DNA of 64,000 nt from Eledone cirrhosa (Eukaryota), in NCBI GenBank assembly GCA_964016885.1, contig OZ024747.1:52266001-52330000 (forward strand), in the 5' to 3' direction. The notes under the pieces are model-generated. The model was not told the DNA's origin and made no database searches. It saw only the letters and a list, made by a program, of their open reading frames with translations. This document shows, in pieces, positions 6,654 to 46,625 of the stretch; within the stretch, counting starts at the first letter, position 1; each line of letters begins with the position of its first letter. The translations under genes and the position numbers were made by a program.

Positions 6654-6718
6654 TATTTTATTATACATATTTCAAGGATACCATGTTAAATTATGGTATG
6701 CTTTCATCAGACAAAATA
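6654..6718 (-). ncRNA. type I hammerhead ribozyme, family A
   Basis: Reverse strand tattttgt-CTGATGA-aagcataccat..atggtatcctt-GAAA-tatgta-TA-ataaaata. Confidence 0.85.
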
Positions 6719-8234
6719 CAATATATACCAGTTTTATAAATAAATATTGACATACCCTTACAAAATGCAACCGTTACTTTTGGAAGACATCGGGATAGTG
6801 GATTTGTTTACTTATATTAGTAAGTCGTTGTATTACAGAGAAGGAAAAAGACGGAGAGAAAGAGAAAAAACGGAGAGAGAGAAAAGGGAGAAAGAAAGAA
6901 AAAAGAAGAAAGAAAAAAGAACAAAGAAAAAAGAACAAAGAAAAAAGAAGAAAGAAAAAAAGAAAATAGAGAGAAAACGAGACAGAGATATCAAAACACC
7001 AGACAGAGAGAAAAAAATCGAGAGAGAGAAATATAGAGATAGAGAGAGGGGGGAGAGAACGAAAACCTCAAGTTAAGTTAACAATTGAGATGAAATGAAT
7101 AAATAAAATTAGAAATATTAATATTCATGAATGGAATATACATATATAATATGAGAAATTAATCATTGTTTAACGATGATTAGATATTTAGTTTAAAAAT
7201 TTGAGATCAATATATTAAAAATTGGAATTTAAACATTAAGAAATCTATATATTGCTAGAGAAATTACATATCATATAACACGTACATACACGCAAAAATA
7301 CACATAAATATATATATACACACACTCACAAAATACACATCATATCTACCCCCGTATATAATATATACATACAAAGCATACATGATTTTTTTTAATATTT
7401 AATGTTATACATCCTTTGTGTTACTAAATAAAAAATTTTAATATATATATATAAATATATAAGATTAGCTGTCATGCATTTATGGCTGTTAGTTATGTCT
7501 ATCTGCAATCAAATTGTATGGATATACATGTACATGTACACACACAATTCTTACATATACATATATATACATGTGTGTGCATCCTCAGCCAATTGGTAGA
7601 CACGCGTCACGCATGCATATATACAGACAGACATATTTTCATAAAAATGCATATAACACATGTATATGTATGTTAATATACACATATATATACATACACG
7701 TATAGAGATAAATATACATCAATATAGTATACAGTATAATTGAGTACATAAAATAGAAAAGGATTATATTTTGGAAATATAATTATATCAATATAACTTT
7801 AAAAACAAAACAATTCTAAAATATTAAAATATTATAGAATATTTTAAGTTAAAATAATATGTTTAATAGATTTAGTATAGAAATTTATCTTACGTATATT
7901 TTACTCAAGATATTGAAAGGATAAACTTTCGAAAATTATGAGAAACTATCAGAATAAAAGCAAACATAAAAAATTAATAAAAAATAAAAATATAAAAAAT
8001 TAAAAAATATAAAAAATTTAAAAAAAATAAAAAAAATAAGAAATAGGAAATATTTTCTCCTTTCAAGAGCTCCAATATATTTCTCTAGAATAGTTTATTA
8101 TATTTATATTTATATTTAGGAAGAAAATTTATTTATACATGAGTACTTAACCAAAGAAAATGAAAAAGATGAAGGAATCTAATGATTTATCGACAGGTTT
8201 CATATATTAACCAAATTAATTAATTAATTATATA

Positions 8235-8580
8235 CTACATTTTAAATTTATATTTATATTTAAACGTTGAGTTCAATCTATGTCTGCAGCAACTGAATAA
8301 ATTATTCCTTAAATTCAGGGAATGTTTGGTCTTTAATATAAAGAATATTTCCTCTATACAAAGATCGCAATTTTCTGAAGAGGAGTTAAAAGGAGTAGCT
8401 TATGAAATAATATTCCAAATCAGCGAATATTCATAATTTTCTCGTTTTAGGTCCCATAATAGGCTAGATAGAGAAGTTGAAGATTTTTTGCTTGGATCTG
8501 TAAAAGAAATTTTATGATTATTGAAGCGGGATTTAAACTCTGTGGAGGTAGATCCGACATAATTAAATGAATTTAAATTA
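8235..8580 (-). pseudogene. PLE GIY-YIG endonuclease C-terminal fragment (Naiad-like)
   Basis: YVGSTSTEFKSRFNNHKISF...W.I...CDLCIEE...LNLRNNLFSCCRH; one internal stop. Confidence 0.85.
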
Positions 8581-10010
8581 GTTTCTTTTTTCATTTTCTT
8601 TGGTTAAGTACTCAAGTATAAATAAATTTTCTTCCTAAATATAAATATAAATATAAATATAATAAACTGTTCTAGAGAAATATATTGAGAGCTCTTGAAA
8701 GGAGAGAATATTTCCTACTTCTTATTTTTTATATTTTTTATATTTTTTTATATTTTTTATATTTTTTATTTTTTATTTATTTTTTATTATGTTTGTTTTT
8801 ATTCTGATAGTTTCTCATAATTTTAGAAAGTTTATCTTTTCAATATCTTGAGTAAAATATACGTAAGATAAATTTCTATACTAAATCTATTAAACACATT
8901 ATTTTAACTTAAAATATTCTATAATATTTTAATATTTTAGAATTGTTTTGTTTTTAAAGTTATATTGATATAATTATATTTCCAAAATATAATCCTTTTG
9001 TATTTTATGTACTCAATTATACTATGTACTATATTGATGTATACTTATCTCTATACGTGTATGTATGTATATGTGTATATTAACATACATATACATGTGT
9101 TATATGCATTTTTATGAATATATGTCTGTCTGTATATATGCATGCGTGACGCGTGTCTACCAATTGGCTGAGGATGCACACACACGTATATATATGTATA
9201 TGTAAGAATTGTGTGTGTACATGTACATGTATATCCATACAATTTGATTGCAGATAGACATAACTAACAGCCATAAATGCATGACAGCTAATCTTATATA
9301 TTTATATATATATATTAATTTTTTTTATTTAGTAACACAAAGGATGTATAACATTAAATATAAAAAAACCATGTATGCTTTGTATGTATATATTATATGC
9401 GGGGGTAGATATGATGTGTATTTTGTGAGTGTGTGTATATATATATTTATGTGTATTTTTGCGTGTATGTACGTGTTATATGATATGTTGTTTCTCTAGC
9501 AATATATAGATTTCTTAATGTTTAAATTCCAATTTTTAATATATTGATCTCAATTTTTTAAACTAAATATCTAATCATAGTTAAACAATGATTAATTTCT
9601 CATATTATATATATATATTCCATTCATGAATATTAATATTTCTAATTTTATTTATTCATTTCATCTCAATTGTTAACTTAACTTAATATGACATGACTTA
9701 AGGTTTTCGTTCTCTCCCCCTCTCTCTATCTCTATATTTCTCTCTCTCGATTTTTTCTCTCTGTCTGGTGTTTTGATATCTCTCTCTCGTTTTTCTCTCT
9801 TTTTTCTTTTTTTTTCTTTTTTTCTTTTTTCTTTCTTTCTCCCTTTTCTCTCTCTCCGTTTTTTCTCTCTCTCTCCGTCTTTTTCCTTCTCTGTAACACA
9901 ACGACTTACTAATATAAGTAAACAAATCCACTATCCCGATGACTTCCAAAAGTAACGGTTGCATTTTGTAAGGGTATGTCAATATTTATTTATAAAACTG
10001 GTATATATTG

Positions 10011-10075
10011 TATTTTGTCTGATGAAAGCATACCATAATTTAACATGGTATCCTTGAAATATGTATAACAATATA
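10011..10075 (+). ncRNA. type I hammerhead ribozyme, family A
   Basis: CTGATGA 10019-10025, stem II hairpin, GAAA 10056-10059, tatgta-TA. Confidence 0.85.
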
Positions 10076-10424
10076 GATATGGTTTTATAAATATAGTTTC
10101 CATTTGTTAATATCGTATATTTACTCCAAATACTTGTCGAGTGCTTTATATCAGTTATAAAAATATTTGCTTGCTGTATCCCAACAATTTAAATAGAACT
10201 TTTGCATATATATATATATATATATATATATATATATATATATATATATATATATACATACATATATATATATATATATATATATATATATATATATATA
10301 TATATATATATATATATATATATATATATATATATATATATATATATACATATATATATACCTACCTATCTAACAAAAACAAAACGAAAACAAAAAACAA
10401 AATTCCAGATCATGAGTAATATTG

Positions 10425-10590
10425 GGAAAGTCGGTTATATGTACCCAGTACTTTACTGGTACTTTATTTTATTGACTCAGGAAGGATGAAGGGTAAAGTT
10501 GACTGCTGCAGGATTTGAACTCAAAATGTTAAGAGTCGGGACTACTACCACAATACATTTTTTCCCACGCTCTGATAATTCCGCCTAATC
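10425..10590 (-). mobile_element. SINE family 1, diverged
   Basis: 'ctggtactttattttattgac...ggatgaagggtaaagttgac...gatttgaactca'. Confidence 0.75.
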
Positions 10591-10649
10591 CCCATCCCTC
10601 ATAATGGAGTAATAATGGTTTCTGGTTTAGGCTAAACTCTATTAATCTA

Positions 10650-44631: not shown

Positions 44632-44996
44632 AGGAATTCCAACTTTGTCTGATTTACTCGTTTTATTTACAATCCTTTAAAATTATAATGATATTATGAT
44701 GAAATAGTATGGTAGAATATTAAATGTTACGTGTTAATTGAACAAGAACTTTCATGCTTTCGCAATCTTCAGGTTCATATTCAGTGGTGACAGTCAAGTC
44801 TGTAAATTTTCAACTGTTGAAAATTTACAGACTTGACTCACCACTGAATATGAACCTGAAGATTGCGAAAGCATGAAAGTTCTTGTTCAATTAACACGTA
44901 ACATTTAATATTCTACCATACTATTTCATCATAATATCATTATAATTTTAAAGGATTGTAAATAAAACGAGTAAATCAGACAAAGTTGGAATTCCT
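44632..44996. mobile_element. near-perfect 365-bp palindrome with two family C hammerheads
   Basis: Centre caac-t-gttg (~44815); hammerhead (+) 44851-44889 tgaac-CTGAAGA-ttgc-gaaa-gcat-GAAA-gttc-TT-gttca, mirrored at 44739-44777. Confidence 0.88.
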
Positions 44997-45305
44997 TTTA
45001 TTAATATAATCTTCTATACACAATCATACACACCCGTGTATATTTATTTATATATATATATATATATATATATATATATATATATATATATATACACACA
45101 CACACACACATGTGGTAGATAAGACATGGCGTTTCGTAGTGTAATCTTTAAGATGATCGCTTGGCAAGAAAGGAATCTGTTGTTCGTGTCCCATCAGGGG
45201 TTCTGCTAATCTCCCGGTGTTTTATATAATGTTTAATATCATTAAGAATTTAAACACCATTTTACAGAGACACACATGTATTTCTGTGTGTATGTATATG
45301 TATTT

Positions 45306-45480
45306 CGAGAGTGTGATGAAAAGTTCCTGGCTTTGGGTAAACGGAAATACAAGAGGATCAATTGATTATGGTTTTATCAACATATTGCCCTCCTAGTTAT
45401 TGTAGCGGCCCTTCAGTTTTTCTAAGCTCTGTAAAATTAATTCGGAATGTTGGGCCACCAACCAGGCCTTTTAAAAGCTT
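45306..45480 (+). mobile_element. mariner-like MITE terminal fragment
   Basis: 'cgagagtgtgatgaaaagttcctggctt' resembles mariner TIR start. Confidence 0.45.
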
Positions 45481-45489
45481 TAAAGAAAG

Positions 45490-45670
45490 GGACTTTTCAG
45501 CTTTCTCTCATATGTCATTCTGTTTGATGCTGAATCTCCCTGAGAACTACGTTAAGCTACAAGTGTCTGTGGAATGCTCAGTCATTTGGAAGTGAATTTT
45601 CACGAGCAGGCTGTTCCGTTGTTCGCATCAACTGGAACAATCACCGTCGTAACCTACGGAGTGCTCGTTT
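45490..45670 (+). mobile_element. SINE family 2 3' part
   Basis: 'ctgaatctccctgagaactacgttaag...ttcacgagcaggctgttccgtt..actggaac..cgtcgtaacc.acgga'. Confidence 0.75.
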
Positions 45671-46272
45671 ATGTATGTATGTGGGGGGGTGGGCGGGCAG
45701 TGGGCGTTGTATGTATTTATCTACATAGTTTTGTTCCTAAAAGCTATTATATCACATGTTCATGATTACTAAATACATACATACATACATACATACAGCC
45801 ATGTATGTATGTATTCAAGCATTTATCTATGTATGTATGCATATATGTATGCATAGATGTATGTGTATATATATATATATATATATATATACATACATCT
45901 ATGCACACATACATAGACGAATGCTTGAATACATACACACACATACATACATACAAACATACATACATACATCATACATACATAAATACACACACATACA
46001 TAGATACATATATAGATACTTACATACATACATGCATACATACATACAAACACACAGATACATACATACATACATACATACATACATACATACATACATA
46101 CATACATACATACATACATACATACATACATACATAGATTCATACATACATACTGGCACATATATAGATAAATATACTTACGCAAACACTATTAAATATA
46201 TGAAACGTATGAATGCTTTTTGCGCATATATGTGCGCGAGTGTATGAATATATATATATATATATATATATA

Positions 46273-46625
46273 TATACAATATATTAACAAATGGAAACTA
46301 TATTTATAAAACCATATTTATTTCATTATACATATTTCAAGGGCCACCAAGGCAGATTATGGTGCGCTTTCATCAGATAAAATATAATATAGATTAGTTT
46401 TATAAATATATAACTTTATAATTAGATTTTATCTGATGAAAGCGCACGATAATCTGCCTTGGTGGCCCTTGAAATATGTATAATGAAATAAATATGGTTT
46501 TATAAATATAGTTTCCATTTGTTAATATATTGTATATTTACTCCAATAATTTGTTGAGTGCTTTATATCAGCTATAAAAATATTTTGCTTGTTGTATCCC
46601 AACAAATTAAATATAACCTTTACAT
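46273..46625. mobile_element. head-to-head palindromic pLTR pair with two family A hammerheads plus right tail
   Basis: Hammerhead (-) 46319-46384 and (+) 46426-46490; arms to ~46538; tail matches 10116-10205. Confidence 0.88.

What the first reader, a model, noticed from the sequence alone, without database searches (positions are those of the whole stretch)
6654..46490. A shared hammerhead-pLTR terminal module (family A) caps different PLE bodies and also occurs alone
Seen: nine copies (6654, 10011, 11727, 25006, 25084, 25496, 27896, 46319, 46426) plus a half copy at ~38683. They keep stem I tattttat/ataaaata, CTGA(T/G)GA, GAAA, a near-palindromic tat(g/a)ta stem III and the tail 'atatggttttataaatatagtttccattt'. 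Stem II changes sequence but keeps pairing (ataccat/atggtat; cacca/tggtg; gtacca/tggtac), and a distal stem I extension (tttataaaac/gttttataaa) is conserved. The module follows a Naiad-like GIY-YIG body, a different AT-rich body (10650-11830) and apparently a Neptune-like GIY-YIG body (37121-38745). Known: PLE hammerheads with palindromic stem III are proposed to act as dimers. Inference: a portable ribozyme end shared across PLE lineages or mobilised as a non-autonomous, retrozyme-like unit.
Basis: partly seen in the sequence, partly recalled or inferred. Interest (0 to 1): 0.75.

Follow-up and report, generated by a model that had tools for sequence, protein, structure and literature searches.

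The report
Hammerhead ends of Hydra-clade Penelope elements
These repeats are the end-pieces of one large family of Penelope-type jumping genes, each carrying a predicted self-cutting RNA; they are inherited with their own gene rather than swapped between different elements, and the many stand-alone copies are likely short copying products that often stop at one fixed site, possibly the element's transcription start.

Summary
The nine copies and the half copy are real. They are type I hammerhead motifs in the pseudo-LTRs of sister subfamilies of ONE Hydra-clade Penelope-like lineage (not Naiad); at least 36,082 copies genome-wide, with intact 732-745 aa ORFs between two such motifs. The 'different AT-rich body' is a sister subfamily's 3' UTR; module and endonuclease diverge together. 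The Neptune link is a one-off junction: 1 of 30 loci, and that family has its own hammerhead. So 'portable module shared across PLE lineages' is not supported. 'Occurs alone' is true and common: 62 of 99 unbiased copies begin within ~140 nt of the cut site, 22 of them at one conserved motif and none in the next 13 nt, while copies starting at the cut site are rare. Inverted pairs have one short and one long end (13 of 13). Likely: uncut RNA is copied from two internal start sites; solo modules are run-off copies. Self-cleavage untested; no RNA data. The scan reported Hydra-clade hammerheads and the two-end rule before on other DNA of this genome.

The parts
6614..8590 (-). 5'-truncated Hydra-clade PLE, subfamily A1: GIY-YIG C-terminal end (~8584-8250), ~1.5 kb 3' UTR, hammerhead 6718-6654 (predicted cut after 6662), short end at ~6614 into (TA)n
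   Evidence: aligns to full-length L370 at 81-93%
8587..10206 (+). inverted arm of the same insertion: 3' UTR, edge motif at 9929, hammerhead 10011-10075 (cut after 10067), long end (~+140 nt tail)
10634..11834 (+). sister subfamily A4: last codons of a Hydra GIY-YIG, 3' UTR, hammerhead 11727-11790, short end
24872..25078 (-). subfamily A2 solo arm, long end; core reads TAAA instead of GAAA
25079..25191 (+). subfamily A2 solo arm, short end; head-to-head with the previous arm
25449..25628 (-). subfamily A5 solo module starting exactly at the ACTATCC edge motif, hammerhead 25556-25496, short end
25630..25665 (+). last ~35 nt of the A5 long tail, the inverted partner arm of the 25496 copy
   Evidence: sequence against A5 tails printed
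26655..28000 (+). 5'-truncated A1 copy: 3' UTR, hammerhead 27896-27960, short end
37121..38686 (+). unrelated Neptune-clade fragment (GIY-YIG C-terminal, 3' UTR with a 238-nt duplication), cut off before its own hammerhead
38682..38746 (+). half module (from TGAAA), joined to the Neptune 3' UTR at a 5-nt shared word; one-off junction; short end
38760..41770 (+). a different Hydra-clade family (frameshifted RT-EN) inserted after the (TA)n; its relatives end in a different, long-armed hammerhead, not family A
46277..46408 (-). A2-type solo arm, hammerhead 46384-46319, short end
46409..46630 (+). A2-type solo arm, hammerhead 46425-46490, long end

Best explanation
The module is the pseudo-LTR of one Hydra-clade Penelope-like retrotransposon lineage, carries a predicted type I hammerhead, and is inherited with its own ORF in every subfamily; the stand-alone and mirror-image copies are likely short reverse-transcription products of uncut element RNA inserted into (TA)n. 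Shown: full-length copies read pLTR(HHR)-tail-ATG-RT-GIY-YIG-3'UTR-pLTR(HHR), 3.7-4.3 kb cut site to cut site; copies end at two fixed places (~+50 and ~+140 nt after the cut site), each just before a similar short repeat (RCTCC-N-GAGYGCTTTA); inverted pairs have one of each; many 5' ends pile up at a motif 125-140 nt before the cut site. Inferred: the endonuclease nicks (TA)n, the two nicked strands prime at the two internal sites, and synthesis from the 5' pLTR (or from a transcribed solo pLTR) runs off at the RNA 5' end, likely a transcription start at that motif. Inferred: the hammerhead, with a 2-nt-loop palindromic stem III, would cut only as a dimer, and longer-than-unit copies would come from a circular or tandem template. 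Adjacent 'foreign' bodies are nested insertions, because every PLE end leaves a (TA)n target.
For: Hydra motifs RWR, DKT, CxCX5C, CxxC, CxH, C-terminal EN in L031 and L367-L373 against the clade definition. 27 of 40 fetched loci have 732-745 aa ORFs; 32 of 37 with a located start have a family A hammerhead 3', 23 have both (loci were chosen for long ORFs). A4 and A5 bodies lead into Hydra ENs. EN and module distances agree in 16 linked copies (rho 0.83; same four groups). Unbiased first 100 matches: Hydra EN upstream in 10, Neptune EN in 0; 99 align upstream to family references. Edge: 22 of 59 copies that reach the motif stop there, 0 of 37 in the next 13 nt, 18 stem II variants involved; repeated in A2 loci, 9 of 27. 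(TA)6-joined starts: 116 at the cut site over all subfamilies (6 of 20 inspected are only expanded stem III), 76 at the edge in A1-type subfamilies alone, 17 at a control TATATA site. 13 of 13 head-to-head pairs have one short and one long end; 4 of 4 in the window. Stem II both-side changes in 4 pairs. Precedent: tails, inverted truncated copies, (TA)n, internal RT starts and uncut template, TSS within the pLTR.
Against: No cleavage assay and no RNA ends. First pair of stem II is A-U (11 of 14) or G-U, not the conserved G10.1-C11.1. Single-copy folds are weak (z -1.0 to -3.8), RNAalifold shifts stem I out of register, and no Rfam hammerhead model appears in the rows shown. Distal stem and stem III show no both-side change, and their 3' strands were part of my search pattern. 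13 of 23 ORF-bearing tandems extend >200 nt upstream of the cut site, past the edge, so a single linear RNA from that site cannot explain them. In the A1 set the edge is smeared over -13 to -1. The Mantel p ignores kinship (about four independent groups). No ORF-linked copy of the GGTGGCC variant of A2 was found.
Confidence: 0.85

Rival explanations
1. Solo pLTRs are a separate non-autonomous, SINE-like class: transcribed from their own internal promoter and copied in trans by the Hydra RT, with some subfamilies (A2) having no autonomous partner of their own.
For: 62 of 99 copies are solo-sized; 25 of 27 A2-type copies start at or after the edge; the Penelope 3' pLTR can drive transcription. 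Compatible with the best explanation's mechanism; differs in the source RNA.
Against: The edge is at the homologous place in all subfamilies, including those with intact ORFs, as expected from a shared pLTR feature; A2-type copies with long bodies and one with a Hydra EN exist.
Confidence: 0.25
2. The module is a portable ribozyme end exchanged between PLE clades.
For: One junction between a Neptune 3' UTR and a half module (38686); the module is about half as diverged as the EN DNA (0.2 vs 0.37).
Against: Junction in 1 of 30 loci, and 24 of the other 29 carry a different own hammerhead; 0 of 29 other Neptune EN loci have the module within 1.5 kb; 0 of 100 unbiased copies have a Neptune EN upstream; co-divergence with Hydra EN; the neighbouring Hydra family has another hammerhead.
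Confidence: 0.03
3. The module is a retrozyme: short tandem repeats expressed as circular RNA.
For: Type I hammerhead; retrozymes are proposed to derive from pLTRs.
Against: Only 4 of 100 copies have a same-strand copy within 1 kb; three of those neighbours carry a different stem II, one was not checked. Solo copies hold one hammerhead or two in opposite orientation, which cannot release a monomer.
Confidence: 0.04
4. The 5' edge is a reverse-transcription stall or a microhomology artefact, not a transcription start.
For: The motif lies just after a pyrimidine-rich tract and contains TAT, which can pair with (TA)n; stopping rate already rises in the 13 nt before it (0.16).
Against: Edge also in subfamilies whose motif reads CACTGCC/CACTACC; a better TATATA microhomology site gives fewer junctions (17 vs 76; denominators differ and are only roughly known).
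Confidence: 0.3

Closest known systems
Hydra clade of C-terminal EN+ Penelope-like elements (Craig et al. 2021, PMC8557442; e.g. Hydra-1_Obim)
   Same: RT then GIY-YIG, RWK-type, DKT, CxCX5C, CxxC and CxH motifs, (TA)n targets, canonical hammerheads, inverted 5'-truncated copies, a tail at one end only (section 11 read whole, passages, supplement rows).
   Different: Unit 3.7-4.3 kb (published Hydra mostly <3 kb), tail ~95 nt (30-40 nt described), a different hammerhead: three family A motifs have 0 hits in the paper's supplement; many co-existing subfamilies with intact ORFs.
PLE hammerheads (Cervera and de la Pena 2014, PMC4209133; parts 1-2 of 4 read)
   Same: Type I, palindromic stem III, predicted dimer; mostly single or opposite-strand motifs 100-700 bp apart from truncated PLEs.
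   Different: Long stem I (8 bp plus a 12-bp distal stem), stem II with C-C mismatch, A10.1-U11.1 instead of G-C.
Poseidon PAc of Anolis (Frangieh et al. 2024, PMC11167929; parts 1-2 of 4 read)
   Same: Two internal RT start sites defining the tail; uncut RNA is the template; no ends at the cut site.
   Different: Other clade; here starts lie before the ATG and each precedes a repeated motif; the fixed 5' edge was not in the parts I read.
Animal non-LTR retrozymes (PMC7229834, passages; bioRxiv 10.64898/2026.07.22.740005, parts 1-3 of 5 read)
   Same: Type I hammerhead, pLTR ancestry, no coding capacity in solo copies.
   Different: No head-to-tail arrays seen here; autonomous parents with the same module exist.

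Membership tests
Hydra-clade PLE | single ORF, RT followed by C-terminal GIY-YIG | tested here: met
   (732-745 aa)
Hydra-clade PLE | RWK and DKT motifs, CxCX5C linker, CxxC and CxH in EN, no CCHH | tested here: met
   RIRWRAF, SDKTNN, CNCRNKSNC, CDLC, CRH in L370; by eye against the supplement alignment
Hydra-clade PLE | placement in an RT phylogeny with reference clades | not tested
   reference proteins not available as session sequences
Hydra-clade PLE | (TA)n insertion and pLTR hammerhead | tested here: met
Naiad | N-terminal EN, no canonical hammerhead | tested here: not met
   EN is C-terminal, hammerhead present
Type I hammerhead ribozyme | CUGANGA, GAAA, UH cut site with three helices | tested here: met
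   8 of 9 window copies; stem III needs a dimer
Type I hammerhead ribozyme | covariation of helices | tested here: inconclusive
   stem II 4 pairs and stem I 1 pair with both-side changes; distal stem and stem III none; related sequences, no R-scape
Type I hammerhead ribozyme | match to an Rfam hammerhead model | tested here: not met
   none in 150 of 217 rows shown or 23 of 23
Type I hammerhead ribozyme | self-cleavage | not testable with these tools
   needs in vitro assay
non-LTR retrozyme | short head-to-tail tandem repeats each with a hammerhead | tested here: not met
non-LTR retrozyme | small circular RNA | not testable with these tools
   no RNA run listed
Neptune-clade PLE (37121-38686 only) | C-terminal GIY-YIG preceded by CX2-5CxxC linker | tested here: met
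   CGRSNCGTC and upstream reading frame in relatives; PF01541

The most novel reading that the evidence does not exclude
Most copies of this family are 'strong-stop'-like products: a capped, uncut pLTR RNA is primed at two repeated signals by the two nicked target strands and copied to its transcription start, so solo pLTRs with their own promoter spread in trans as a SINE-like class, while dimeric hammerhead cleavage makes a circular template only for the full-length element. This would give PLEs two templates and a genomic read-out of their TSS, RT start signals and ribozyme function.
Probability: 0.25. Interest if true: 0.6.

Novelty: new member of a known kind. Interest (0 to 1): 0.33.

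Why it matters
The headline claim (a ribozyme end shared across PLE clades) fails, and pLTR hammerheads in Hydra elements are published. What remains useful: a very abundant, young Hydra lineage with intact ORFs whose copies record a fixed 5' edge, two fixed 3' ends and a strict one-short-one-long rule. These give precise coordinates for testing open questions on PLE transposition (where transcription starts, what positions RT, whether the hammerhead ever cuts the template).

Tried and rejected
Rfam gave only AT-repeat miRNA noise. No RNA holder listed for the module; no evidence either way. Laying public contigs on the first region was not done; on 38100-39000 the contigs were too short and repetitive to confirm or deny the unique junction, and loose ends at 38686 show the ordinary Neptune continuation. 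A first all-against-all extension timed out and its rerun over-extended into TA runs and inverted arms, so its extension lengths were dropped in favour. Idea that the half module is the pLTR of the Hydra element at 38760-41770: rejected, that family ends in another hammerhead. Pfam does not recognise the Hydra RT or EN pieces. Search for ORF-linked A2 copies in held loci found none, uninformative because such copies are rare even for A1 (1 of 38; the A4 hit is a GA-repeat false positive). Look-ups of earlier scan notes by sequence, words and place returned nothing. Literature searches; none of the listings or passages I read describes a fixed 5' edge of solo pLTRs, but I read only parts of these papers and bioRxiv supplements are closed.
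Full report
Observation. A motif scan of the window finds the module at all nine stated places, four on the minus and five on the plus strand, plus the half copy. Parsed as a type I hammerhead it has an 8-bp stem I, CTGA(T/G)GA, a stem II of 3 bp + C-C mismatch + 5-7 bp, GAAA, a palindromic stem III (ATATGTAT or ATATATAT) and a predicted cut after AUA. 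Deviations: 25006 has TAAA; three copies lack the distal stem because they are truncated; 11727 and 46426 have a broken stem II pair. A 35-nt pattern has 36,082 exact matches in the 3.0-Gb genome, control 0.

Structure. On 14 subfamily representatives (actual copies; 15 clusters had two or more members, one near-duplicate was left out; alignment), 96.8% of cells pair; both-side changes occur in 4 stem II pairs and 1 stem I pair; the distal stem changes only on one side and stem III not at all. The 3' half was part of the selecting pattern and the sequences are related, so this is support for stem II mainly. Single-copy z-scores are -1.9, -1.2, -3.8, -1.0; RNAalifold recovers stem II and the distal stem but mis-registers stem I; no Rfam hammerhead is among the rows shown. 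The first stem II pair is A-U, unlike the usual G-C. Cleavage is untested.

Parent element. One A1 hit continued past the tail into an ORF; the extended locus L031 encodes RT then GIY-YIG. The motifs match the Hydra clade as defined by Craig et al., not Naiad, which has an N-terminal EN and lacks canonical hammerheads. A search with the ORF start gave 150 scored matches; of 40 loci fetched for long ORFs, 27 have 732-745 aa ORFs, 32 of 37 with a located start have a family A hammerhead after the 3' UTR, and 23 have one on each side, 3,743-4,297 nt apart, the 5' one 186-189 nt before the ATG. The window's 6614-10206 block is such an element, 5'-truncated, with an inverted arm. Three family A motifs are absent from that paper's supplement and Hydra-1_Obim has another hammerhead.

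Different bodies. The 10634-11834 body begins with the last codons of a Hydra EN, and its relatives extend into ENs 50-65% identical to the A1 EN. In 16 EN-linked copies (25 rows, 9 dropped as short, inverted or lacking a whole hammerhead) EN and module distances agree (rho 0.83) and form the same four groups: vertical co-inheritance, with the module the more conserved part. For the Neptune body, 39 of 40 matches to the junction stop where the module begins; none of the 29 other loci continues into it, 24 of them carry a different minimal hammerhead with a U3-A8 core, and 0 of 29 other Neptune EN loci have the module within 1.5 kb. In the first 100 genome matches (unbiased by body), 10 have a Hydra EN upstream on the same strand and 0 a Neptune EN within 1.5-2 kb. 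The Hydra element at 38760-41770 belongs to a family with a long-armed hammerhead, and locus L198 shows a family A pair nested in that family's terminal (TA)n. The portable-module reading is therefore rejected.

Solo copies. Of 99 alignable copies, 40 start between the cut site and a conserved CACTA(T/C)CC / CACTGCC motif 125-140 nt upstream, 22 start within 6 nt of it, and 37 extend further. The stopping rate is 0.37 at the motif, 0.02-0.16 in the 13-nt bins before, 0 in the bin after; 18 stem II variants contribute. A2 loci repeat this (9 of 27 at the edge, 16 shorter, 2 longer); in A1 loci, biased by the query, it is broader. Starts at the cut site are rare: 116 (TA)6-joined matches, 6 of 20 inspected being expanded stem III in whole hammerheads, against 76 at the edge in A1-type subfamilies alone and 17 at a control site; denominators differ, so these ratios are rough. 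Window copy 25496 starts exactly at the motif.

Two 3' ends. 57 of 100 copies end ~50 nt and 43 ~140 nt after the cut site. All 13 head-to-head pairs have one of each (p about 1e-4; one pair differs slightly in stem II), as do the 4 inverted structures in the window. In ORF-linked copies each end is followed by a similar repeat (ACTCC..GAGTGCTTTA and GCTCC..GAGCGCTTTA), which folds as a short hairpin in most predictions; this lead came from an earlier scan note.

Mechanism. Shown: anatomy, linkage, edges. Inferred, by analogy with Poseidon PAc (two internal RT starts, uncut template) and Penelope (TSS inside the pLTR): both nicked strands of a (TA)n target prime at the two internal sites; synthesis from a 5' or solo pLTR runs off at the RNA 5' end. 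Against a single linear template: 13 of 23 tandems extend >200 nt upstream of the cut site, 4 end near the motif, 6 are shorter; the two pLTRs of a copy are closer to each other than to any other copy in 19 of 23 (3 ties, 1 reverse), which fits a circular or tandem template, as proposed. No RNA run was listed.

Verdict. New member of a known kind. Head-to-tail arrays that define retrozymes were not seen. Earlier scan notes on other families in this genome reached similar readings. Interest 0.33.

Noticed in passing
window 37121-38686 and loci L033-L061: The Neptune family has its own minimal hammerhead with a U3-A8 core, 4-bp stem II and palindromic ACCGGT stem III (24 of 29 loci).
   Followed up: partly
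window 38760-41770; L317-L336: Another Hydra family whose relatives end in a hammerhead with a ~110-nt stem II arm and CGATCG stem III; the window copy is cut by an RT-bearing insertion at ~41770.
   Followed up: partly
window 25784-25880 and 26226: A further hammerhead-like family (CTGATGA ... GAAA CAG) in an inverted pair and singly.
   Followed up: no
window 44632-44996: 365-nt near-perfect inverted repeat with two mirror CTGAAGA...GAAA motifs.
   Followed up: no
L128, L137, L193, L001: Other hammerhead families share stem I TATTTTAT/ATAAAATA and a palindromic stem III (TGCGCA, TACGTA) but have different stem II and tails; possibly deeper relatives of family A.
   Followed up: no
window 1369-2011, 10424-10544, 18551-18709, 29707-29851, 35399-35534, 51030-51218, 55796-56012: A dispersed 100-220-nt SINE-like repeat.
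   Followed up: no
window 18620-21500: 43-nt tandem satellite, about 69 copies.
   Followed up: no
window 3772-4917, 31975-35130, 41851-42207: Broken non-LTR retrotransposon ORFs (RT and AP-endonuclease-like pieces; family labels recalled, not tested).
   Followed up: no
G000 list: Many copies of this Hydra lineage have open frames of about 745 codons, suggesting recent activity.
   Followed up: partly
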